A stretch of 24,019 bases of DNA from a virus (taxonomy: Duplodnaviria; Caudoviricetes): positions 1 to 24,019 of IMG/VR virus record IMGVR_UViG_3300044300_001022; one strand, written 5' to 3'. The stretch's first letter is position 1. Each line of letters begins with the position of its first letter. Positions 1 to 23,580 of this stretch are shown here, piece by piece. The position numbers and the translations under genes are program-made. Under the pieces are notes generated by a model. The model was not told the DNA's origin and did not search any database. It worked only from the letters and a program-made list of their open reading frames with translations.

Positions 1-2
1 CT

Positions 3-944
3 ACTCCTACGAGTACACCCGAACCTACACCGTCGCCTACACCCGAACCTACACCTGTACCTACTCTTCAACCTGATCCCACTCCTGTAGAGGTTCCTGA
101 AGCAACCCCAGAAGAACCAGAACTACCAGAAGTCCCAGAATTACCAGAGGAACAGCCCACACCAGAAGAACTGCGACCAGTAGAGGTATTTGAACCCCCA
201 GTAGAAGAAGAGTGGCAACCACCACCATTGATATTAGAGTTAGAGGAAGAAGAAGAATACCCATATGATGATGGTATCATATTTGATGATATAGATTGGG
301 AAGAATTTGATTTTGACGAAGAACTCTTTATTTTAGAGGAATTTGAGGAGTTCGATGAGGGACAAGAAGAGCTATTAGTAGAGGAAGAAATTTTTGATTT
401 TGACGAGGAATTGGTGGATGAACCTATACCAGAAGAAGCTGCGACAGAAACGGAAGAAGAAGTTGCTTTTGTTGATGAGGGAGAACAAGAGGAACCTTTC
501 GTACTCGAAGCAGATGTGGAATTAGATGAGCAAGATTTTGAAGATTTGGAGGTGGAAGATTTAGATGATGAAATTATTGCTGAAATACTACAAGAGCAAG
601 ATGCTGCTGAAGAATTTTTTCAAGAAGTCATAGAAGATAATCCTGATTTCTTTGAGGAAAGCAGCACAGAGGAATTAGAAGAGGTTTTTGAGGCAGCTCC
701 TGAGCTGTTTAATGAAGCACCTGATGAGGTGAAGGAAGAATTTGAGGAGGAAGTGAATATATTTGCTGGGGGATTTGAGGATTACCAGGCTGAGGATAGC
801 ACGATTACTGTGCAGGAACGGCGTGTTGTTGTGACTGCTTCTACTGTTAGTGCTGTTGCTGCGGCTAGGCCAACTGTTCGTGTTGCGCCTTCTCCGTCTG
901 TTGGTGGTCCATCTGTTCCTCAAGGGGGTAGAAGAAGACGATGA
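3..944 (+). CDS. 5'-truncated protein: Pro/Thr-rich linker, long Glu/Asp-rich region, C-terminal hydrophobic stretch and RRRR tail
   Basis: The frame of ORF 228..944 is open back to base 3 (TPTSTPEPTPSPTPEPTPVP...), so the true start lies upstream of the window. The stop TGA overlaps the next ATG (ATGA 941-944). Confidence 0.8.
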   Translation, partial: TPTSTPEPTPSPTPEPTPVPTLQPDPTPVEVPEATPEEPELPEVPELPEEQPTPEELRPVEVFEPPVEEEWQPPPLILELEEEEEYPYDDGIIFDDIDWEEFDFDEELFILEEFEEFDEGQEELLVEEEIFDFDEELVDEPIPEEAATETEEEVAFVDEGEQEEPFVLEADVELDEQDFEDLEVEDLDDEIIAEILQEQDAAEEFFQEVIEDNPDFFEESSTEELEEVFEAAPELFNEAPDEVKEEFEEEVNIFAGGFEDYQAEDSTITVQERRVVVTASTVSAVAAARPTVRVAPSPSVGGPSVPQGGRRRR

Positions 945-1114
945 AATTTTGGAAAAAAGTATTTTTTGAAACCAGTGCATTAAGCTGGACAATCGGTGGA
1001 ACTGGAATTGTTTTGATAACTCTTTCAGGAGAAACTAGAGAAATGGGAATTTGGATTTCTGTTGCTAGTTTTGTCTTTCATATGATTGGTGTTTTGTTAG
1101 ACAAGGAGTCATAA
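941..1114 (+). CDS. Small membrane protein, 57 aa, two hydrophobic segments (not in ORF track)
   Basis: Hand translation: MKFWKKVFFETSALSWTIGGTGIVLITLSGETREMGIWISVASFVFHMIGVLLDKES*. ATGA overlap upstream and TAATG overlap (1112-1116) downstream. Confidence 0.75.
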   Translation: MKFWKKVFFETSALSWTIGGTGIVLITLSGETREMGIWISVASFVFHMIGVLLDKES

Positions 1115-1374
1115 TGACAGATAATTTAAGCGTATTTTTTAATACTTGTTTGCGTATCCTGAGTGTGTTTGGCATTCAGTGTATGGCGATTATTGGGGGA
1201 GCGAGTATGATTGGGGATATACCTGTGTACAAGGCTGCGATACTTAGCGGTGTTGCTGCTGTGGCTCAGGTATTGCAGAAATTAGCTATTGCTTTTGCAG
1301 ATGATGGGAAATTGACGCAAGCTGAGTTAGACGCAGCGTTTGCTAATGTTTCTAGCGGATCGGAGGACCGTTAA
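1114..1374 (+). CDS. Small membrane protein, possibly holin-like
   Basis: AAGGAG ribosome-binding site upstream, two hydrophobic stretches, acidic DDGKLTQAELDAAF tail. Confidence 0.7.
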   Translation: MTDNLSVFFNTCLRILSVFGIQCMAIIGGASMIGDIPVYKAAILSGVAAVAQVLQKLAIAFADDGKLTQAELDAAFANVSSGSEDR

Positions 1375-1972
1375 CCCACATTACTGCTGATTTTCTGATT
1401 CCTTCAGTGACAGGTGTTATCCTATGATGTATGAAACTTGGAAAAATAACGGCAGATCCTTTTGGCGCTCGTTCAATGAACGTGTGGTGTTGGTTATGGA
1501 ACAGGAGTTCTAGTGTTCCACCTTCGTAATCTTCTGGGGAGCTTAGATTCACGGTCACTGATAACTTCCGCACTAACCCTGCTAGCAATGGGTTTGTTGT
1601 TTGGTTTAGTGGCATTGGGTCTGTGGCTGTTCCGACCAGATGTTTTGCGGCGTATCGGTCTTGGTGGCCGTCAGTGTGCCAGTTATACTCGTCGCCTTCT
1701 TCGTAAACCGTGTACTGTACGGCTTCTGGGCGAACCAGGTCTAGTACCCATCCAGCGTCAACATTTGCGGAAAAGGCAAGATCTTCGACCATTTGGAGAG
1801 CGCCGTGGTCGTGTATCCAGCTTATTTGTGAAGAACGTTTTGATGGATCTTCACCAAAGTGAAAGCCGTCTTTAGCGTGGGCCTCGAACGATTTCTCGCC
1901 TTTGTCTTTCAAATAATCGCATTCGCTTTCCGTAAATGCGTTAGGGATGTACCAGTAGTGGTTAGTAAGCAT
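1352..1972 (-). CDS. 2OG-Fe(II) oxygenase (PKHD/prolyl-4-hydroxylase-like)
   Basis: Motifs YNWHTD (HxD), RKLSVTVNLS, YEGGTL, AVIFPSFIHHRITPVTEGIRKSAVMW (distal His and 2OG-binding Arg). It is the only credible minus-strand gene. Confidence 0.9.
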   Translation of the reverse strand: MLTNHYWYIPNAFTESECDYLKDKGEKSFEAHAKDGFHFGEDPSKRSSQISWIHDHGALQMVEDLAFSANVDAGWVLDLVRPEAVQYTVYEEGDEYNWHTDGHQDRYAAKHLVGTATDPMPLNQTTNPLLAGLVRKLSVTVNLSSPEDYEGGTLELLFHNQHHTFIERAPKGSAVIFPSFIHHRITPVTEGIRKSAVMWVNGPPIR

Positions 1973-2861
1973 GGCTTATAGCTTATCAGAGTTGCGGCAG
2001 GAAGCCGAGTGGAGAAAGTGCAAAAAAGATGAATCTTATTTTTTGCGTAATTACTGGCATATAGCGCATCCTGCACATGGGCGTATCTTGTTTGATTTAC
2101 GCAAAGCGCAATCAACAGCGTTAGAGCATTGGGAAGAACATAGGTATTCATTAACGTTAAAAGCTCGGCAGATTGGGTGGTCTACACTTGTAGCAGCCCA
2201 CCAATTTTGGTTAGCGTTTTTTCATTCAGATCAGAACATTATTGATTTGTCCAGGACTGAACGTGAAGCGGTGTTATTGCTGCGTAAGACTAAATATGGG
2301 TTTAAGCATTTACCTGAGTGGATGACTGAACGTGGGCCTAAATCGATAATGGAACATCAACAAAGAATGGGGTTTGACAATGGGTCACAAATTACATCAA
2401 TGCCATCAGCTTCTGACCCAGCTCGTGGCGAATCAGCGTCGCTTATTGTCGTGGATGAATGGGCTTTTCTCCCTAATCCTGAAGAAGCTTGGGCTTCTAT
2501 CGAGCCTGTTGCTGATATTGGTGGTCGCATTATTGGTCTTTCCACTGCGAATGGTAGTGGGAATTTCTATCATCAGCTTTGGGTTGGTGCTACTGCTGGC
2601 GCAAATAAGTTTGCGCCTATGTTTTTCCCGTGGTCAGCGACTGAAGATAGAGGTGAAGCGTGGTACCAGGAAAAAATAGAAAGCATGCTGCCTTGGCAGC
2701 TAGCGCAAGAATACCCAACTACTCCTGAGGAAGCGTTTGTGAAGTCAGGTAACCCTGTGTTTGATTTGGATATTTTGCAAGAAATGGATAGGCGCACGAC
2801 ACGTGGAGAAATGGGGTATATGTGGCGGCAAGGAAACGCTGTGGAGTTTAGACATCAATGA
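1971..2861 (+). CDS. terL: Terminase large subunit, N-terminal ATPase domain as a stand-alone gene
   Basis: Walker A-like LKARQIGWST, Walker B LIVVDE preceded by ARG, coupling motif GLSTANG, and QEYP...AF..SG.PVF. The ORF stops before the nuclease domain. Confidence 0.93.
   Translation: MAYSLSELRQEAEWRKCKKDESYFLRNYWHIAHPAHGRILFDLRKAQSTALEHWEEHRYSLTLKARQIGWSTLVAAHQFWLAFFHSDQNIIDLSRTEREAVLLLRKTKYGFKHLPEWMTERGPKSIMEHQQRMGFDNGSQITSMPSASDPARGESASLIVVDEWAFLPNPEEAWASIEPVADIGGRIIGLSTANGSGNFYHQLWVGATAGANKFAPMFFPWSATEDRGEAWYQEKIESMLPWQLAQEYPTTPEEAFVKSGNPVFDLDILQEMDRRTTRGEMGYMWRQGNAVEFRHQ
1980..1988 (-). promoter_or_regulatory. Candidate extended -10 promoter for a leaderless oxygenase mRNA
   Basis: The minus strand reads TGATAAGCT (TGn-TANNNT), then 7 nt (ATAAGCC), then the ATG. 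No Shine-Dalgarno sequence is present. Confidence 0.45.
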
Positions 2862-3691
2862 ACGAAGATAGAAACATAAGGATTCTTTCTCTCGGCGCAG
2901 GCGTGCAAAGCTCTGCGCTGTTGTTACTCGCCATTGAAGGCCAGATAGAACCTATTGAGCACTGTATTTTTGCTGATACTGGTTGGGAACCTAAAACTGT
3001 CTATCGGCATGTAGAGTATTTAATTCCCTTTATGAAAAAAGCCAATATACAGTTTCATAGAGTTTCTTGTGTGCGGCCAGAGTCAACAGGAAACATTAAA
3101 GAAGACATGTTGAGGGAAGATAAACCGTATTTATCTATTCCATTTTTTATTAAAAATGATGAAGGTAAATCAACTATAAGTAGAAGGCAATGTACTCAAG
3201 AGTATAAAATATCACCTGTTTTGCGAAAGACAAGAGAAATAATGGGTTTGAAATATAATCAAAGATATGCCAAAAAATATGGTATAGCCACAAACCTAAT
3301 GGGTATTAGCACTGATGAAATCCAAAGAATGCGAACGCATAAAAAACCCTACATATTCAATAGCTACCCTTTGATTGATCTCGGAATGTCGAGGCAAGAT
3401 TGTTTAGATTGGATAGACGAGAGAGGATATAAAAAGCCTAGCAGGAGTGCTTGTATCGGTTGTCCTTATCACAGCAACGCTGAATGGTTAGCACTCAAAG
3501 AAAATAGTTTTGAAGAGTTTATGGATGCAGTTAATTTTGAAAGAGAAATAAACAAAGTTGAAACTAGCTATGGGAAAAAACTTTTTTTACATAAAGATTT
3601 GATACCTTTAGATGAAGTAGACTTTAAGCGTGGCGGTGAACCCCAATTAAATTTATTTGATATGGAGTGCCAAGGGATGTGTGGAGTGTGA
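2858..3691 (+). CDS. PP-loop (adenine nucleotide alpha-hydrolase) / PAPS-reductase-like protein with Cys clusters
   Basis: ILSLGAGVQS PP-loop-like motif, IFADTGWE, RQCTQEYKI.P, MGISTDE, YPL, SACIGCPY, and C-terminal ECQGMCGV. Confidence 0.85.
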   Translation: MNEDRNIRILSLGAGVQSSALLLLAIEGQIEPIEHCIFADTGWEPKTVYRHVEYLIPFMKKANIQFHRVSCVRPESTGNIKEDMLREDKPYLSIPFFIKNDEGKSTISRRQCTQEYKISPVLRKTREIMGLKYNQRYAKKYGIATNLMGISTDEIQRMRTHKKPYIFNSYPLIDLGMSRQDCLDWIDERGYKKPSRSACIGCPYHSNAEWLALKENSFEEFMDAVNFEREINKVETSYGKKLFLHKDLIPLDEVDFKRGGEPQLNLFDMECQGMCGV

Positions 3692-4359
3692 GTTTAGAAG
3701 TTTGGGATAGGCCTGATCCGATGAGCGCTTACGTTATGGGAGTAGACACAGCGGAAGGTTTAGGGCATGGAGACTACTCTTGTATCCAGGTTCTTTCTGT
3801 TGGCACTGGAGAGCAGGTAGCTATTTGGCATGGCCATATTGCACCTGATCTATTAGCTGAAGAAGTTCATGCTCTAGGATTATGGTATCGAGATGCCTTG
3901 TGTTGCGTAGAATCAAACAATCATGGGCTCACAACTATCACTGAGTTGCGGCATTTGGGGTATCCTAACTTGTTTAGGCGTAGACAACTTAATAATGTAA
4001 ATAATAGAATAGGCCAAGAGTACGGTTGGAAAACTACACGAACGTCTAAGCCGTTAATGATCGACGATTTAAGTTCTGCACTGCGTAATTGGGAGTTGCA
4101 GATTAATGATAGGCACACAGTTGCTGAGTTGCGTACATTTACTAGAAACGAGAGGGGCTCTATGTCAGGGTCTCCTTATGATGACCGAGTGATGGCTCTT
4201 GCTTTAGCTAACCAGATGAGGAAATTTGCTTATGAACCAGAATATGCACCGCAAGTGGACGATTATTGGACTGTTGATTGGTTTGCTCGTTTGGGTGATG
4301 ATTCGCCGCAAGTTGATCCTTTTCAAATAGGTGCAAACAATGTGCGTGGGACACTGTAA
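3688..4359 (+). CDS. terL: Terminase large subunit, C-terminal RNase H-like nuclease domain as a stand-alone gene
   Basis: YVMGVDTAEG, DYS, VESNNHG, GWKTT..SKP, DDRVMALALA. The start is placed at GTG 3688, which overlaps the upstream TGA; the ORF track uses 3667. Confidence 0.9.
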   Translation: MSLEVWDRPDPMSAYVMGVDTAEGLGHGDYSCIQVLSVGTGEQVAIWHGHIAPDLLAEEVHALGLWYRDALCCVESNNHGLTTITELRHLGYPNLFRRRQLNNVNNRIGQEYGWKTTRTSKPLMIDDLSSALRNWELQINDRHTVAELRTFTRNERGSMSGSPYDDRVMALALANQMRKFAYEPEYAPQVDDYWTVDWFARLGDDSPQVDPFQIGANNVRGTL

Positions 4360-4370
4360 ACTCTTAATAG
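4347..4370 (+). promoter_or_regulatory. TGGGACA-N13-ATAG motif, copy 1 (putative late promoter)
   Basis: TGGGACA CTGTAAACTCTTA ATAG, upstream of the small-gene/portal module. Confidence 0.7.
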
Positions 4371-4398
4371 AGCATATGTATACATGGAAGGTGCTTTA

Positions 4399-4686
4399 AT
4401 GGCAAGTAAATTTGTATCGCACACAAGTGCGTCAGAAACAGTAGACGGTAAGTCAGGTCAAAACAACAAAATGGAACGTGGTTCCAGCGTTGTTGCTAAT
4501 CCGATTTGGCAACCAGGTGGACCTCAAAGCCCTACACAAAGGTTTGTTGATGGAAAGATTAACAACCAAACAAGTGATGAAGGTGCAATTAGTGTTCGTC
4601 AAACTCCTGAAAACCAGCATGGTCTAACAGGTAACGTTGAACCTGCTCCGTATCAGCCAAATTTCTCTGGTTCAGACGCTGGTTAA
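4399..4686 (+). CDS. Hypothetical polar protein
   Basis: ORF 4384..4686. ATG 4399 is preferred because GGAAGG precedes it. TAATG overlap with the next gene. Confidence 0.7.
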   Translation: MASKFVSHTSASETVDGKSGQNNKMERGSSVVANPIWQPGGPQSPTQRFVDGKINNQTSDEGAISVRQTPENQHGLTGNVEPAPYQPNFSGSDAG

Positions 4687-4943
4687 TGGCTATCTTGCCT
4701 AGAGGGGCAAGCTACGAAGAATTTGTAGAGTACGTCATTGATTTGCGTGGCGAAGTCCCTGAAGAAGAACTGAAGGAACTGTACGAACGCCGATTAAAGC
4801 TTCATGGCATTACTTTTGACATGAAGCGTGGCTGGAAAGCGGTTGCTCTTGCTCCTGACGAGCAGGATTTAACGAACAATGAGCGTGAGCAGAAGATAGT
4901 TGCTGAGGCTAAAGCTCAGGGCAGAAACATAGCAAGGGTTTAG
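4686..4943 (+). CDS. Hypothetical protein, 85 aa
   Basis: Coupled ORF filling the space before the portal gene; charged, helical-looking sequence. Confidence 0.75.
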   Translation: MAILPRGASYEEFVEYVIDLRGEVPEEELKELYERRLKLHGITFDMKRGWKAVALAPDEQDLTNNEREQKIVAEAKAQGRNIARV

Positions 4944-4944
4944 T

Positions 4945-6831
4945 ATGGCTAAAAAAACACGTTTCGAGCTACTTACTGATTACCAAGAAAAAGTGGAAAA
5001 ATGTCATGAATGGCGTGAATCTGAAAATTTAGATCGTACTTGGCGTAGGCTTAATGACCTTTATAGGGGGAAACATTGGCCTTCAACTACTTTGAATAAC
5101 CAGGATCTGATAGCTGTCAATTTAGCTTTTTCAACTATTAATGTCATAGCACCTTCCGTAGCAGTTAACTATCCAAAGATAGTTGTCCAAGCTAATAATG
5201 TTGAAGATAGAGATAGGGCTATTTTTGTAGAGGCTATTATCAACCATCTATGGAGGCATCACGATTTTAGAACGCCTTTTAGACGAGCTGTAAAAGATTT
5301 CCTTATTTATGGTCATGGTTGGGTTAAAGTCGGTTGGAAATTTGTAGAGCAAGAACAAAGCGTTACTGAAAATGAACGTGAAATACTGTTAGATCAAGCT
5401 TTTTCTGAAGCTGATTTATTTGCTCAAGAAGCGCCTTTGATGGCTGGTGACATCGCTTCAGATCAAGATATTGTTTCTAATATCCCTGAAACAGTTATGC
5501 GAATTGTTGAGGATCAACCATTTGTTGAGCGTGTAAGCCCATTTGATGTGTACGTGGATCCTGAAGCTACTTGTATCGAAGATGCTAAATGGATAGCTCA
5601 AAAAATTGTTAGGCCGTTATCTGTAGCGCAAAAAGACAAGCGGTATAAACCTTCTGCACGTAAACGTTTAAGTGCTTCTGCTAGGTACAATTTATACGAT
5701 TCAAGTAGTTACTCAGAAGAAAAAGGTGAATACGTTGATGAACGTGTTATCGTCTGGGAATTTTACAACATGATGGATAATACCATCGCAGTATATGCTG
5801 ACAGCGCTAACGAATTTCTTATAGATCCGTTAGCTATGCCGTATGCGTATGGGCAACCGTTTGTTATGTTACGAAACTATGACGTTCCAGATCACTTTTA
5901 CCCTATAGGCGATTTAGAAGCTATTGAGCCCTTGCAACTGGAGTTAGACAAGACGAGAAGCCAGTTGATGAACGATAGGAAGCGTTATGCGAGAAAATAC
6001 CTTTACCACGAACGTTCCTTTGGGCCTGAAGGCCGTGAGGCGTTGGAATCAGATGAAGATGGTCGCCTTGTACCTGTTGTGGACGAGAATAAACCGCTTT
6101 CTGAAATAGTCATGCCGATGCCGCAGGTTCCGTTATCACCTGAAATATACAACTACTCAAACATAATCGAAGAAGATATTAATACGGTTTCTGGCATATC
6201 TGAATATGCACGTGGCGCTATGCCTGAGATACGGCGTACAGCTACAGAAGCTTCTATTGTCGCTGATGCACAAAACGCTAGATCTGCTGACAAGCTAGCT
6301 ATCGTCGAACTGTCTATCTCTAAAGTAGCTAGACGAGTTATCCAATTAATGCAGCAATTCATGACTGGAGAACATGTCGCAAGGCTTAATGTTAAGGGTG
6401 GAGAAACGATGTGGATTCCATATTCTCGGCAAGAAATTGTAGGGGAATATGATTACAGCGTCCAAGCTGGTTCAACACAACCTATGAACGAAACAATTAG
6501 AAAGCAACAAGCTATTTCTTTAATGAACGCTGTTGCTCCTTTAATAGGAAGTGTCATAGACCCTACGGCTATAGCGTTGCACGTTTTAGAAGCTGGATTT
6601 GGCATTAAGGATCCAGAGAAGTTTTTAGCGCAACAGGCTCCACCGCCTCCTCCTGAGATGGCAGCGGAACAAGGACAAATGCCTACTACTGGTGGGCCGC
6701 CTCCTGGAATGGGCAATGCTCTACCGCCTCCTTCGCCTGAAGCAGGGGCTTTTGCGCCTACTGGAGGTGTCCCTCCAGAGTTGCTGGCACAGTTACAAGC
6801 ACAAATGGGTATGGAATTGCCTTCCCTTTAA
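4945..6831 (+). CDS. Portal protein
   Basis: 628 aa between terminase and scaffold/capsid. Portal-like segments LIYGHGWVKVGW, ERVSPFDVYVDP, SGISEYARG..RRTATEA, and a Pro/Gln/Met-rich C-terminal tail. Confidence 0.88.
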   Translation: MAKKTRFELLTDYQEKVEKCHEWRESENLDRTWRRLNDLYRGKHWPSTTLNNQDLIAVNLAFSTINVIAPSVAVNYPKIVVQANNVEDRDRAIFVEAIINHLWRHHDFRTPFRRAVKDFLIYGHGWVKVGWKFVEQEQSVTENEREILLDQAFSEADLFAQEAPLMAGDIASDQDIVSNIPETVMRIVEDQPFVERVSPFDVYVDPEATCIEDAKWIAQKIVRPLSVAQKDKRYKPSARKRLSASARYNLYDSSSYSEEKGEYVDERVIVWEFYNMMDNTIAVYADSANEFLIDPLAMPYAYGQPFVMLRNYDVPDHFYPIGDLEAIEPLQLELDKTRSQLMNDRKRYARKYLYHERSFGPEGREALESDEDGRLVPVVDENKPLSEIVMPMPQVPLSPEIYNYSNIIEEDINTVSGISEYARGAMPEIRRTATEASIVADAQNARSADKLAIVELSISKVARRVIQLMQQFMTGEHVARLNVKGGETMWIPYSRQEIVGEYDYSVQAGSTQPMNETIRKQQAISLMNAVAPLIGSVIDPTAIALHVLEAGFGIKDPEKFLAQQAPPPPPEMAAEQGQMPTTGGPPPGMGNALPPPSPEAGAFAPTGGVPPELLAQLQAQMGMELPSL

Positions 6832-6855
6832 TGGGACACTGTGCTTAACTTATAG
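6832..6855 (+). promoter_or_regulatory. TGGGACA-N13-ATAG motif, copy 2
   Basis: TGGGACA CTGTGCTTAACTT ATAG, directly after the portal stop and upstream of scaffold and capsid. Confidence 0.72.
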
Positions 6856-6891
6856 GAACACCTTATTTATTAAGACTCCAAGGAGGGCATT

Positions 6892-7605
6892 GTGCCTGAA
6901 GAAACAGAAGCCATAGAATCCACTGAAGCAGCGGACAACCTAGAAACTTCAACAGAAGTACCAGAGGAACCTGGATATGTCGTCAAAATTGACGGCGAGG
7001 AACAACAGGTCAGTCTCGAAGAACTTCAAAACGGTTATCAACGGCAAGCGGATTACACTCGTAAGACGCAGGAGATAGCTGCTGAACGTGAGCGTTTGCT
7101 CCAAGCGGAAGCGATTGTGTCTGCGCTGGAAAAAGATCCAGCAGGGACATTGGATACTTTAGCTCGTTCATTTAATGTTAATCCTTCAGCTAATACTCAA
7201 AATGATAATCTTGAGTATGAGCAGGATCCGACAGAACGTAAACTAGTTGAATTAGAAAACAAAATCGCTGCACAGGAGCAAGTGCAAAGGGTTCAAAAAA
7301 TAGAGCGTGAAGTTAACACTTTGCAAGAAAAATATGGAGAGTTTGACAGACAAGAACTGCTAAATCATGCGTTAAAGAACGGTATACCCAACCTTGAGGC
7401 TGCGTATACTCATATGAGATTTAACGAGGTTAAGACCACAGCGGATAAACTTTCGCAGGAACAGGAAATAACCAACAAAAAACGTGAAGCAGCGGTAGTC
7501 ACTCCTGGTGGTTCCACACAAACTGGAACTGCTCCTGAACCAACTCCTGAGGTTTCAAGTCTTAGAGAAGCTTTCGCTTTAGCCAAAAAACAGTTAAACA
7601 ATTAA
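6892..7605 (+). CDS. Capsid scaffolding protein
   Basis: AAGGAGG RBS and GTG start, acidic N-terminus, VKIDGEEQQVSLEELQNGYQRQADYTRKTQE motif typical of phage scaffolds, coiled-coil character, located before the capsid gene. Confidence 0.85.
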   Translation: MPEETEAIESTEAADNLETSTEVPEEPGYVVKIDGEEQQVSLEELQNGYQRQADYTRKTQEIAAERERLLQAEAIVSALEKDPAGTLDTLARSFNVNPSANTQNDNLEYEQDPTERKLVELENKIAAQEQVQRVQKIEREVNTLQEKYGEFDRQELLNHALKNGIPNLEAAYTHMRFNEVKTTADKLSQEQEITNKKREAAVVTPGGSTQTGTAPEPTPEVSSLREAFALAKKQLNN

Positions 7606-7624
7606 CCTCTAAGGAGACAAGAAT

Positions 7625-8590
7625 ATGGCTGCTGGAAACAGTAACTTTGACGAGATTCTTACTACTACCTTAAAAAACTATGTACCAAAATTAACTGACA
7701 ACATTTTCACAGCTAGGCCTCTGTTCTATGCTTTGACAAATGGTCAAACAATTCGGCGCATTTCAGGTGGTGCTAAGATAGTCGTTCCTGTAATTTATGG
7801 AACAAACTCTACCGCTGGTTCTTACTCTGGTTCAGATACTATATCTACGACTGCTCAAACAGGCATTACTGCCGCTGAGTACGACTGGAAACAGTACGCT
7901 GCCACAGTAACAATCTCTGGTATTGAAGAAGCCAAAAACAACGGTGAAGCACAAATCATCGACCTGCTGGAAGGTAAAATCTTCCAAACGCAAGAAACCA
8001 TCATTGAAAACCTTAACACGATGCTATTCGGTAACTCGACTGGTAACAGTGGAAAAGACTGGAATGGGCTTTCAGCCCTAATCGGTTTGGGTAACGATGA
8101 CGGTTCTTCTGCGCTTGCAGGAATCGATGCTACTGATTCAGATAACTCATGGTGGAGATCATCAGTTACGAATCAGGGTGGCGCTCTCACTGTTGCTGCA
8201 ATGGCTACTTTGTATAACAACGTGTCAGTTGGTAACGATCAACCAACAGTAATTATTACTGGTCAAGCTCAATATGAAGCTTATGAAGCTTTGCTTGACG
8301 GTCAAATTCGGTACACAGATACCGATATGGCTGACGGTGGGTTCCAGAACCTAATGTTCAAAGGTTGCCCAATAACCTTTGATGGCACACTTGCTGGTGA
8401 AGGAAAAATGTACTTCCTTAACACCAAGTACCTACAACTTGTTGCACATAGCGATGTTTGGTTCAAGCCAACACCGTTTGTACGACCAACTAACCAAGAC
8501 TCCGTGTTCTCACAGATTCTTTGTTACGGTAACCTTACAACGAGCAACCGAGCTCGCCAAGGTTACATGTACGGTATCACACCAGCTTAG
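7625..8590 (+). CDS. Major capsid protein
   Basis: AAGGAG RBS, 321 aa, follows scaffold. Segments such as LTDNIF..PLF, AEYDWKQY, GFQNLMFKG and YFLNTKYL are typical of HK97-fold capsids of this phage type. Confidence 0.88.
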   Translation: MAAGNSNFDEILTTTLKNYVPKLTDNIFTARPLFYALTNGQTIRRISGGAKIVVPVIYGTNSTAGSYSGSDTISTTAQTGITAAEYDWKQYAATVTISGIEEAKNNGEAQIIDLLEGKIFQTQETIIENLNTMLFGNSTGNSGKDWNGLSALIGLGNDDGSSALAGIDATDSDNSWWRSSVTNQGGALTVAAMATLYNNVSVGNDQPTVIITGQAQYEAYEALLDGQIRYTDTDMADGGFQNLMFKGCPITFDGTLAGEGKMYFLNTKYLQLVAHSDVWFKPTPFVRPTNQDSVFSQILCYGNLTTSNRARQGYMYGITPA

Positions 8591-12221: not shown

Positions 12222-14003
12222 ATGCCTAAAGATATTCAATACACCAAACTTCTAGGACCACAAGTCGAAATAACCATGACTAACGGCCCTGATTATGAGG
12301 GTACGTATGCTTCTGGCACTACTTACGCTGCTGGAGATGTCGTAACGTATAACAACTCTTCATATATCGCTAGACAAGCGACGACAGGCAACACTCCTGG
12401 CGATACTGCTTATTGGCAGACGTTAGCTTCGCAAGGTTCATCTGGTGGTACAGGCCCAACAGGGCCAACTGGACCTACAGGCCCAACAGGACCAAACGGC
12501 CCCACAGGACCAACAGGTCCAAGTGGGCCAACAGGAAGCGCAGGGCCACCTGGTCCGACTGGACCTACAGGTCCATCTGGCCCGACAGGTCCGACAGGTA
12601 GTACTGGTCCGACAGGTCCAGCAGGTTCTGATGGTAAGACGGTATTGAATGGTTCTGGTGATCCTTCTGGGCCTACTGGAGCTGATGGCGATTTTTATAT
12701 TCAAACAAGCGACAATGAGATCTTTGGTCCCAAGTCGAGTGGTTCTTGGGGTTCAGGAACTTCTCTAGTTGGTCCCACTGGTCCCACAGGGCCGACAGGC
12801 CCGACTGGGCCGAACGGCCCCACAGGTCCGACTGGTCCCACAGGACCAACTGGGCCTGGCGGTACTGGACCTACTGGCCCCACTGGGCCTACTGGCCCTA
12901 CAGGTAGCGCTGGTCCTCCTGGGCCTGACGGCCCTACTGGACCTACTGGTCCTAGTGGGCCTACTGGTGGCACTGGACCTACAGGTCCGACTGGCCCGAC
13001 TGGGCCTACAGGCGCACAGATTCTTAATGGTAGTGGTGACCCTTCTGGTCCCACAGGTTCTAACGGTGACTTTTATATAGATACTGGGGATAACGAAATC
13101 TTTGGCCCTAAGTCAGGTTCTGGCTGGGGTTCTGGTACTTCGTTGGTAGGGCCGACTGGACCAAGCGGTCCGACTGGTCCTACAGGGCCGAGCGGACCTA
13201 GTGGTGGGACTGGTCCTACTGGGCCAACAGGCCCAACTGGACCTGATGGTCCTAATGGTCCTACTGGTCCTGCTGGCCCTCCTGGTCCGTCTGGTGGTAC
13301 TGGTCCTTCTGGTCCAACTGGTCCTACAGGACCAACTGGACCTACTGGGCCGACTGGTCCTTCTGGTACTCCTGCTGGTTCAGATCATCAGGTGCAATGG
13401 AACGACGGTGGTAGCTTTGGGGCTGACGCTAATCTTACTTATGATGGCTCAACGTTAACCGCTAAGGCAGCGTTGACTGTTGGTGTTAATGACACTGGGC
13501 ATGATGTAATTTTCTACGGAGCGACAGCCGACACTAGTTACTTTTGGTGGGATGAAAGCGACGACAGAATGGTGGTCAGTGGAAAGGTAGAATTTGTTGG
13601 CGACGGCGCTTGGAAAACGTGGACTCCAACATGGGGCAACGTGTCAATCGGAAATGCTACGGTGACTGCACAATATGTCCAACTTGACGAATGGGTATTC
13701 GTCAAATTAAAAGCCACGGCAGGTAGTTCGACTAGCTATTCATCAGGGTCTATGACGATTTCATTGCCAGTGGCAACGAATGGTGATACTGGCTACCAAT
13801 GGTTAACCTGTGCGCTAGCCCCAGCAGGAGGAACGCTTTATGAAGGGCCAGTTCTGACTTCAGGGTCTACAGCGTACCCTTGCACAGAGGTTGCAAGTGG
13901 CACTTACGCTTCTTTGACGAATGCCAACGGTGGTACAAGTGTTCCAGCAGGATGGGGTACAAGTGCAATCATTTATATGAACGGATGGTATCGGGCAGCA
14001 TGA
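12222..14003 (+). CDS. Collagen-like fibre protein with N-terminal CBM5/12-like module
   Basis: Three long (Gly-Pro-Thr)n tracts. N-terminal [22 protein letters not shown]...PG...YW module. C-terminal WTPTW...Y.QL...VFV fibre-tip-like domain. Confidence 0.85.
12453..13370 (+). repeat. GGN-CCN-ACN 9-bp collagen repeats, interrupted by two copies of a ~43-aa spacer domain
   Basis: Visible in DNA and protein. Spacers [42 protein letters not shown] at ~12642-12770 and ~13020-13149. Confidence 0.95.
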
Positions 14004-22689: not shown

Positions 22690-23580
22690 ATGCCAAAGAA
22701 AAAATCCCCAAGCTACCGTGGGCGAGGTAACGTGGACCCTAGGACAGGAAGGCCGTCTAAGCCTAAGCCTAAAGCTCAACCTATAGGGCCAAGGAAACCT
22801 GGTTCAAAGTCTAAAGCTAAACCTATAGGGCCAAGGAAACCTGGTGGGAAGCCTAAAAAACCAGTACCCTATGCAGGAAAGACTGCGGCTAAAAAAAGAG
22901 GTGGCGCAGCAGCTAAGAAACGAGGCACAGCTAATCCAGCTACAGATAGACCAACGATGCGAGGTGGTACAGTAGCCAAGAGAGGCACTACTCCTAAAAA
23001 AGGTCCAGCTAAACCTCGTGTAGAACATAAAGCCAGAAAACCTAAAGTCTCTAAAGGAGCTTCTAAGGGTCGTGTAGAGCATAAGGCAAAGGGGCCAAAA
23101 AGAGGTAAGGCAGATCCACGGACAGCTAGGCCAGGCATGAAGGGTGGAACAGTAGCCAAGAGGGGTAAAACTCCTAAAAAGGGTCCGACTAAATCCAAGC
23201 CTCGTATAGAGCACACCGCTAGAAAACCTAAAGTCTCTAAAGGGGCTTCTAAGGGTCGCATAGAGCATAAGGCGAAAGGCCCGAAAAGAGGCAAGGCAGA
23301 CCCTAGAACTGATAGGCCTACTATGAGAGGTGGCACAGTAGCGGCTCGGAAAAACTACCCATCAAGGGGCAACGTAGATCCTAGAACAGGAACTCCTAAG
23401 CCACGACCTAAACCTTCACGCAATGTGGCGACAGGTGGTGGGCATCACAATCTATTTGATGACTACAACAAATGGAACACAAAGTTCCATGCTGGCGTTA
23501 GAAAAGCAGCAGCTAGAAAAGGTGGCATGGGGACAGGGTTTGTTCCTGGTGTTGCACCAACTAAGAAACGAAAGAAATAG
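22690..23580 (+). CDS. Highly basic Lys/Arg/Pro/Gly repeat protein, histone-H1/protamine-like in composition
   Basis: 296 aa with very few acidic residues. Internal repeats vary mainly at synonymous positions, which supports this frame. Confidence 0.8.
   Translation: MPKKKSPSYRGRGNVDPRTGRPSKPKPKAQPIGPRKPGSKSKAKPIGPRKPGGKPKKPVPYAGKTAAKKRGGAAAKKRGTANPATDRPTMRGGTVAKRGTTPKKGPAKPRVEHKARKPKVSKGASKGRVEHKAKGPKRGKADPRTARPGMKGGTVAKRGKTPKKGPTKSKPRIEHTARKPKVSKGASKGRIEHKAKGPKRGKADPRTDRPTMRGGTVAARKNYPSRGNVDPRTGTPKPRPKPSRNVATGGGHHNLFDDYNKWNTKFHAGVRKAAARKGGMGTGFVPGVAPTKKRKK
22921..23345 (+). repeat. Degenerate tandem repeat, period 180/186 bp (~2.3 copies); a separate 42-bp-period pair lies upstream at ~22770-22845
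   Basis: AGTAGC anchor at 22971, 23151 and 23337. AACCTATAGGGCCAAGGAAACCTGGT occurs twice, 42 bp apart. Confidence 0.9.

What the first reader, a model, noticed from the sequence alone, without database searches (positions are those of the whole stretch)
1971..4359. Terminase large subunit split into ATPase and nuclease genes, with a PP-loop/PAPS-reductase-like gene between them
Seen: the ATPase ORF ends at ...GNAVEFRHQ* and the nuclease ORF begins VSLEVWDRP in a different frame. The whole gap is one 277-aa ORF joined by 4-nt overlaps on both sides (ATGA 2858-2861, GTGA 3688-3691). Both halves keep their catalytic motifs and show no decay. Known: TerL is normally one polypeptide, and familiar interruptions are introns, inteins or homing endonucleases. 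Inference: this is a two-subunit packaging motor/nuclease, and the three-gene coupling ties nuclease translation to the inserted enzyme. Deleting 2858-3687 gives CAT CAG TGA with GTG overlapping the stop, so the split may predate the insertion.
Basis: partly seen in the sequence, partly recalled or inferred. Interest (0 to 1): 0.85.

Follow-up and report, generated by a model that had tools for sequence, protein, structure and literature searches.

The report
Two-chain phage terminase with cargo slot
A whole clade of uncultured marine phages encodes its DNA-packaging enzyme as two separate, conserved genes, cut inside the nuclease domain so that the motor half is predicted to clasp the nuclease half, and the gene between them in this genome is an optional passenger, likely a DNA-modifying anti-defence enzyme.

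Summary
Of 173 non-redundant related loci, 156 are split and 17 fused. The split forms are one clade nested among fused relatives (SH-aLRT 98), both halves are under purifying selection (median dN/dS 0.086 and 0.066), and four complete relatives have no other TerL. Junctions occur in frames -1, 0 and +1, which excludes a conserved frameshift. The cut lies about 35 residues inside the nuclease domain; the tail left on the ATPase chain forms the whole predicted interface (score 0.82, best control 0.29; possibly by likeness to solved one-chain terminases). Only 5 of 156 split loci carry cargo: four a PP-loop gene resembling SspD, one an unrelated 44-residue gene. Near-identical phages lack it. 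Two-gene TerL is already annotated in unrelated Arthrobacter cluster AY phages (PMC11920828), and this scan noted the same kind in T7- and P22-type terminases on other DNA. This is an independent fission in a T4 gp17-like family: a new variant of a known kind.

The parts
1971..2861 (+). TerL ATPase chain (296 aa): T4 gp17-like ATPase domain, hinge, and the first ~35 residues of the nuclease domain
   Evidence: Walker A KARQIGW (64-70) and Walker B VVDEW (160-164) invariant in 90 of 90 pairs; domain boundary
2748..2858 (+). C-terminal tail, residues 260-296 (GNPVFD helix, G279-x-x-G282 and VEFR beta-hairpin); predicted clasp for the nuclease chain
   Evidence: G279 and G282 in 61 of 61, E292/F293/R294 in 60 of 61 split proteins; strands 280-288 and 291-296 in the fused model; whole predicted interface
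2843..2846 (+). GGAG, Shine-Dalgarno-like, 11 nt before the next start, inside the V-E codons
   Evidence: an SD-like word in 60 of 103 distinct junctions; function inferred
2858..2861 (+). ATGA stop/start overlap; the ancestral ATPase/nuclease junction and cargo insertion point
2858..3691 (+). Optional cargo gene (277 aa), PP-loop protein of phrog_424, closest profile SspD; G+C 36.5% against 44-45% in the flanking genes
3688..3691 (+). GTGA stop/start overlap between cargo and nuclease
3688..4359 (+). TerL nuclease chain (223 aa), RNase H fold; D20, E75 and D165/D166 align with the T4 gp17 D401, E458 and D542 motifs
   Evidence: triad from PMC3012670
1352..1972 (-). Context: 2OG-Fe(II) oxygenase in the variable region upstream of TerL
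4945..8590 (+). Context: intact portal (4945-6831) and major capsid (7625-8590) genes, SU10/P22-like profiles

Best explanation
This phage clade encodes its large terminase as two separate genes cut inside the nuclease domain; the two chains likely reassemble through the tail left on the ATPase chain, and the gene between them is an optional passenger that likely modifies DNA. Shown: one fission in a one-chain T4 gp17-like ancestor, in the loop between a beta-hairpin and the first strand of the RNase H core, about 35 residues past the ATPase/nuclease boundary; both genes are conserved and adjacent or overlapping. Predicted: residues 260-293 of the ATPase chain pack on nuclease residues 1-8, 58-66 and 125-159, so the hinge stays covalently on the motor and the nuclease core docks non-covalently, restoring a near-normal TerL monomer. 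Inferred: the stop/start overlap couples translation so that both chains are made in proportion; because the junction is now intergenic it tolerates passengers, provided they rebuild an overlap on each side. Inferred: the SspD-like gene entered once in one subclade and is since gained and lost by homologous recombination through the conserved TerL flanks; it probably acts as an iron-sulfur PP-loop enzyme in phosphorothioate-type DNA modification or its evasion, and not as a part of the motor.
For: 156 split against 17 fused among 173 non-redundant loci, with no fused form above about 76% identity; 120 of the 120 listed long homologues are fused, 55-77%; split clade SH-aLRT 98, 35 split and 60 fused rows; dN/dS 0.086 (23 of 89 pairs usable) and 0.066 (46 of 89) and invariant catalytic motifs; only one, two-piece TerL in 4 of 4 complete relatives; junction frames -1 (130), +1 (19), 0 (1); fused model residues 263-492 align with the RB49 nuclease domain (Z 23.9, rmsd 2.0, 187 aligned) and 7-261 with the T4 ATPase domain (Z 27.0, rmsd 2.2, 246 aligned), cut at loop 297-307; complex score 0.82 against best control 0.29, a mark reached by 116 of 157 solved and 2 of 215 mismatched pairs, runs agreeing in at least 95% of contacts, partner pLDDT at least 78; each cargo-bearing locus has an empty-site locus as near neighbour (96-99% over 600 nt of the ATPase gene for the four PP-loop carriers); 65 of 65 cargo relatives match PADLOC SspD; a phage PAPS-domain/Dam fusion was tied to Dnd escape (10.1101/2021.05.05.442762).
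Against: No protein, transcript or packaging data: no member is cultured (best GenBank phage hit 53%). The complex pass may come from likeness to solved one-chain terminases such as 3cpe. The split set was gathered by similarity to the window and the fused proteins partly by a length filter, so monophyly is partly favoured by sampling; the tree was a quick search without bootstrap. T4 gp17 cut at its linker loses translocation (PMC3012670), so a two-chain motor is not guaranteed to work like T4's. One origin of the cargo is not shown (p-AU 0.078). No cysteine desulfurase in 4 of 4 complete relatives, and the Dnd-escape precedent is a fusion protein, not this family.
Confidence: 0.8

Rival explanations
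1. The two chains are made separately but do not form a stable pair: the ATPase ring translocates alone and the nuclease is a transient, separately recruited cutter.
For: [quoted passage not shown] The interface is only predicted and could be weak.
Against: The nuclease chain lacks a part of its own domain, which stays on the ATPase chain; the tail residues G279, G282 and EFR are near-invariant; the predicted interface has about 100 contacts.
Confidence: 0.12
2. A programmed frameshift, readthrough or splice restores one polypeptide in vivo.
For: 130 of 150 direct junctions with a clean reading are in the -1 frame; 4 of 103 distinct junctions have a slippery-like heptamer.
Against: 19 junctions are +1 and one is in frame with a stop; the -1 frame is closed by a stop within three codons of the next start in 65 of 103 junctions and 99 of 103 lack a slippery heptamer; in cargo-bearing alleles a -1 shift would enter the cargo, not the nuclease; every nuclease ORF keeps a start codon at the same place; in empty alleles there is nothing to splice. 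One 236-nt contig of an RNA library is colinear across the first junction (weak, may be DNA).
Confidence: 0.03
3. The cargo is a functional partner of the motor, for example modifying DNA as it is packaged or regulating the nuclease.
For: Three divergent alleles (54-63% identity) hold the same site with both overlaps; the gene is under purifying selection (dN 0.017, dS 0.32, L005 against L012); related PP-loop genes lie just upstream of TerL in other clade members (L072, L340).
Against: Absent in 151 of 156 split loci and from a complete near-identical genome; replaced by an unrelated ORF in L287; the family lies in very varied contexts elsewhere (186 neighbour clusters for 71 loci), several next to DNA methylases. 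Binding of cargo to either half was not modelled.
Confidence: 0.04
4. Assembly error or decaying prophage.
For: The window is a metagenomic fragment; two of the spanning runs may belong to one campaign.
Against: no tyrosine integrase in 4 of 4 complete relatives, two with direct terminal repeats.
Confidence: 0.01

Closest known systems
T4/RB49 gp17 one-chain large terminase (PDB 3cpe, 2o0j, 3c6a)
   Same: Best sequence and fold matches; same ATPase motifs, nuclease triad and domain order.
   Different: Two genes; the cut is past the hinge, inside the nuclease domain (about T4 residues 379-382 by profile alignment; T4 nuclease construct is 360-577, PMC3074133). T4 gp17 cut at the linker lost translocation (PMC3012670).
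Two-gene TerL of Arthrobacter cluster AY phages (BillyTP, PP978841; PMC11920828)
   Same: ATPase and nuclease in consecutive, overlapping genes in a majority of a cluster, so the same kind of arrangement.
   Different: No significant BLASTP alignment between the BillyTP ATPase and a fused member of this family (best E 1.7); 17-nt overlap, no cargo; siphovirus-type gene set. An independent fission, described as annotation only.
SspD / DndC / BrxP phosphorothioation PP-loop enzymes, and phage PAPS-reductase-like genes (phrog_424; PDB 21fy 'PptA')
   Same: PP-loop motif, conserved cysteines C112, C182, C199, C202; SspD profile in 65 of 65, BrxP in 15 of 65; 21fy is the best solved match (E 0.0015).
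   Different: Stand-alone, no desulfurase in the phage; no NCBIfam DndC or CysH hit; extra C-terminal C-x-G-x-C-G motif; no Dam fusion. I found no paper on PptA.
Introns, inteins and homing endonucleases in terL
   Same: Foreign DNA inside a terL locus with empty-site alleles in close kin.
   Different: The empty allele is still split; the insert is one ORF with no nuclease profile and no terminal repeats or target duplication.

Membership tests
T4 gp17-like large terminase | N-terminal ASCE ATPase with Walker A and B | tested here: met
T4 gp17-like large terminase | RNase H-fold nuclease with acidic triad | tested here: met
   D20, E75, D165/D166 invariant in 90 of 90; aligned with T4 motifs; fold tested on fused relative P0020
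T4 gp17-like large terminase | Both domains on one polypeptide | tested here: not met
T4 gp17-like large terminase | ATP-driven packaging and DNA cutting | not testable with these tools
   no cultured member
Cluster AY-type two-gene TerL | ATPase and nuclease in separate consecutive genes | tested here: met
   151 of 156 split loci are consecutive
Cluster AY-type two-gene TerL | Same TerL lineage and same fission event | tested here: not met
   (one BillyTP protein against one fused relative); nearest kin are fused
Programmed frameshift fusion | Conserved frame relation, slippery site and open shifted frame | tested here: not met
Intron / intein / homing endonuclease insertion | Removal restores one reading frame | tested here: not met
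   empty-site alleles are split
Intron / intein / homing endonuclease insertion | Catalytic intron RNA fold | not tested
   Rfam was not searched; the cargo ORF fills the gap end to end
CysH / PAPS reductase (assimilatory) | Pfam PF01507 above cut-off or an NCBIfam CysH model | tested here: not met
   20.6 bits against 22.5, residues 10-68 only; no NCBIfam hit
SspD / DndC phosphorothioation enzyme | PP-loop domain with Fe-S-type cysteines and profile match | tested here: met
   SspD E 1.3e-14 over residues 9-234; 65 of 65 members; invariant cysteines
SspD / DndC phosphorothioation enzyme | Linked desulfurase gene | tested here: not met
   PF00266 absent in 4 of 4 complete relatives, one of which carries the cargo; host IscS can substitute in Dnd systems (PMC10853773)
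SspD / DndC phosphorothioation enzyme | Linked SspB/SspC or DndD/DndE partners | not tested
   no genome-wide search for them was run
SspD / DndC phosphorothioation enzyme | Sulfur transfer into the DNA backbone | not testable with these tools
   needs virion DNA or enzyme assay

The most novel reading that the evidence does not exclude
A T4-like packaging motor with a detachable nuclease: the ATPase ring keeps the hinge and a beta-hairpin clasp, and the nuclease core is loaded or released as a separate subunit, at a stoichiometry below five, which would switch the motor between translocating and cutting. The natural cut point would then show where a gp17-type motor can be divided without losing translocation, and the junction would be a protected late-expressed slot for a phage-encoded phosphorothioation-type anti-defence enzyme.
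Probability: 0.2. Interest if true: 0.8.

Novelty: new variant of a known kind. Interest (0 to 1): 0.52.

Why it matters
Whether the nuclease domain must be tied to the ATPase for translocation is unsettled: T4 gp17 cut at its linker loses translocation (PMC3012670), while the P74-26 work places DNA gripping in the ATPase and has the nuclease flexibly tethered (10.1101/080440). This clade is a natural experiment in the T4-like family, with a cut placed about 35 residues past the hinge, close one-chain relatives at 70-77% identity as controls, and a defined predicted interface. Each chain can be expressed, titrated and removed separately. It also matters for annotation: TerL length filters and TerL trees will treat hundreds of these marine phages as truncated. 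The cargo adds a case of a PAPS-reductase-labelled gene that is better read as SspD-like than as a sulfur-metabolism gene.

Tried and rejected
Frameshift, readthrough and splicing: rejected. Mobile-element ends around the cargo: only 8-9-nt matches (2840/3680, 2844/3690), no terminal inverted repeats. Promoter scan: 4 sites against 6.0 expected; 7 terminator-like sites against 2.2, none at a junction; not used. GenBank phages: no close or cultured member. GTDB genomes: 2 close hits in MAG contigs with conflicting host labels (Acidimicrobiaceae, Methanobacteriota), likely binned phage contigs; not used as host evidence on their own. 50%-cluster search: a few distant proteins of 286-316 aa (P0135, P0149, P0164) could be further splits or contig-end fragments; no context, not counted. 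First tree did not finish the careful search; its quick tree gave support 89 for the same grouping. RNA run X22 held one short contig only. Rows dropped: 8 of 310 locus rows lacked an evaluable nuclease gene, and duplicates were merged to 173; L061 was first classed oddly because of an N gap in its nuclease gene and has an ATGA junction. Literature searches for split TerL: (0 papers for 'split terminase'); for the cargo. Only PMC11920828 described a natural two-gene TerL; subscription journals are not covered.
Full report
Observation. Profiles give TerL ATPase, phrog_424 and TerL nuclease. The window is the head and tail-gene part of a phage: portal, scaffold-like gene, major capsid and adaptor follow. 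The cargo is 36.5% G+C against 44.9% and 44.4% for the halves. Single contigs of three of four laid runs span both junctions, one with 58 differences; two of these runs are of the same year and habitat as the possible source and may not be independent.

The split is clade-wide. Of 80 viral loci found with the ATPase half, 79 had an evaluable nuclease gene and none was fused: 72 four-base overlaps, 3 one-base overlaps, 4 with cargo. Of 80 metagenome loci, 75 were evaluable and none fused (many repeat the viral ones). After dropping 8 of 310 rows without nuclease and merging duplicates, 173 loci remained: 17 fused (55 to about 76% identity to the window's ATPase) and 156 split (75-100%). All 120 listed long homologues, of 1292 hits, carry both halves in about 530 residues. 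On a tree of the ATPase domain alone the 35 split rows form one branch (SH-aLRT 98) inside 60 fused rows (quick search, midpoint root, sampling favours the grouping). One fission from a one-chain ancestor is the simplest reading.

Both halves are selected. In 90 non-redundant pairs the Walker A, Walker B and nuclease acidic residues are invariant; median dN/dS against the window is 0.086 for the ATPase (23 of 89 pairs usable) and 0.066 for the nuclease (46 of 89). Four relatives rated complete (two with direct terminal repeats) have this two-piece TerL and no other, a conserved TerS-like gene, and no tyrosine integrase. All four encode WhiB, and an Fer4_15-type ferredoxin is common upstream, which points to an actinobacterial host (inference; that WhiB marks actinobacterial phages is recalled).

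No recoding. The 156 split junctions are: 4-nt overlap 111, 7-nt 11, 1-nt 5, 2-nt gap 3 (all frame -1); 20-nt 18 and 32-nt 1 (frame +1); stop abutting ATG in frame 1; L061 (ATGA, assembly gap downstream); cargo 5. A stop closes the -1 frame within three codons of the next start in 65 of 103 distinct junctions and 99 of 103 have no slippery heptamer.

Where the cut lies. In fused relatives the junction is the turn in EFR-xxxx-G-x-L-x-V-W. A model of fused P0020 (pLDDT 92) has strands 280-288 and 291-296, a loop 297-307 and strand 308-310. Residues 7-261 superpose on the T4 ATPase domain (Z 27.0, rmsd 2.2, 246 aligned) and 263-492 on the RB49 nuclease domain (Z 23.9, rmsd 2.0, 187 aligned). By profile alignment the cut is near T4 residues 379-382. 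That tail keeps G279 and G282 in 61 of 61 and E-F-R in 60 of 61 split proteins. A complex prediction of nuclease 1-200 with the ATPase chain scored 0.82 against a best control of 0.29 (mark reached by 116 of 157 solved complexes and 2 of 215 mismatched pairs; counts hold only roughly with own alignments; runs agree in at least 95% of contacts; partner pLDDT at least 78); all confident contacts on the ATPase chain lie in residues 260-293. Halves of a split gene tend to pass by likeness to solved one-chain structures, so this shows geometry, not binding in the cell. It fits with the report that T4 gp17 cut at the linker keeps ATPase and nuclease activity but loses translocation (PMC3012670, passages): here the cut spares the linker.

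The cargo. Five of 156 split loci carry an insert. Four hold the PP-loop gene in three alleles of 54-63% identity, all at the same base with overlaps on both sides. L287 holds an unrelated 44-aa C-x-x-C...C-x-x-C ORF, again with GTGA at both ends. Each PP-loop carrier has an empty-site locus at 96-99% identity over the last 600 nt of the ATPase gene, while different alleles' carriers are 84-87% alike. L002 is 99.0% identical to window 1-2854 and 93.5% to 3689-8267, which suggests a crossover at the junction, and its complete genome lacks the cargo family. Empty alleles also appear in runs X20 and X19. In the cargo tree the three junction alleles are parted from 61 other rows by a 98/90 branch, with one long branch among them; one clade is neither rejected nor shown (p-AU 0.078). 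Elsewhere the family sits in varied contexts; among 61 neighbours scanned, six are DNA methylases. All 65 aligned members match SspD, the best solved match is PDB 21fy 'PptA', and the classical PAPS-reductase profile is under its cut-off. Phage PAPS-like genes are proposed as anti-defence DNA-modification genes (PMC13551039, passages; PMC11437467, passages), and a PAPS-Dam fusion was tied to escape from Dnd (10.1101/2021.05.05.442762, passages). DndC is described as a PP-loop 4Fe-4S protein, with host IscS able to replace DndA (PMC10853773, passages). The cargo's activity is therefore inferred, at about 60% for a phosphorothioation-related or other DNA-modifying role.

Comparison with what is known. 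A natural two-gene TerL is in print for most cluster AY Arthrobacter phages (PMC11920828, passages); the BillyTP ATPase shows no significant similarity to this family. That the SEA-PHAGES function list extends this to further clusters is recalled, not checked. Searches found no paper on this clade or on the biochemistry of a natural two-chain TerL; subscription journals are outside the library, and no supplementary files were read. Other papers seen as passages only: PMC3074133, 10.1101/080440, PMC7617512, PMC12839542, PMC7824862 and PMC8008677; the last two held nothing on split TerL. Earlier notes of this scan describe the same kind in T7-type and P22-type terminases on other DNA; I did not test them.

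Verdict. Real, selected, clade-wide two-gene terminase with an optional cargo slot. New variant of a known kind: independent fission in the T4 gp17-like family, cut inside the nuclease domain. Interest 0.52.

Noticed in passing
L287:4882-5016 (and L291): A 44-aa zinc-finger-like ORF fills the same ATPase/nuclease junction with GTGA overlaps at both ends; only a weak DUF2180 match.
   Followed up: partly
window 1-1972 and upstream of TerL in 154 split loci: The region between the TerS-like gene and TerL is a variable block: 2OG-Fe(II) oxygenase (60 loci), ferredoxin (24), other PP-loop genes (L340, L230), GP88-like gene.
   Followed up: partly
L230:821-1621: A second PP-loop family upstream of TerL matches PDB 21fy 'PptA' well (E 8.7e-12); no paper on PptA was found.
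   Followed up: partly
L072:1556-2353: A distant relative of the cargo (36%) lies directly before the ATPase gene instead of in the junction.
   Followed up: partly
window 3-944: Very acidic, E/D-rich protein (494 aa in L002) with a PTPEPT-type repeat and a C-terminal Arg run, followed by two small membrane-like ORFs; no Pfam hit.
   Followed up: no
window 22690-23580: 296-aa Lys/Arg/Pro-rich protein with internal repeats (histone-like in composition), after the amidase; no Pfam hit.
   Followed up: no
window 12222-14003: Tail-fibre-like protein with CBM5/12 and long Gly-Pro-Thr collagen repeats.
   Followed up: no
P0135, P0149, P0164: Distant TerL relatives of 286-316 aa that end near the same hairpin; further independent splits or contig-end fragments.
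   Followed up: no
L241, L242: Members of this phage clade lie in MAG contigs labelled Acidimicrobiaceae and Methanobacteriota; probably binned phage contigs.
   Followed up: partly
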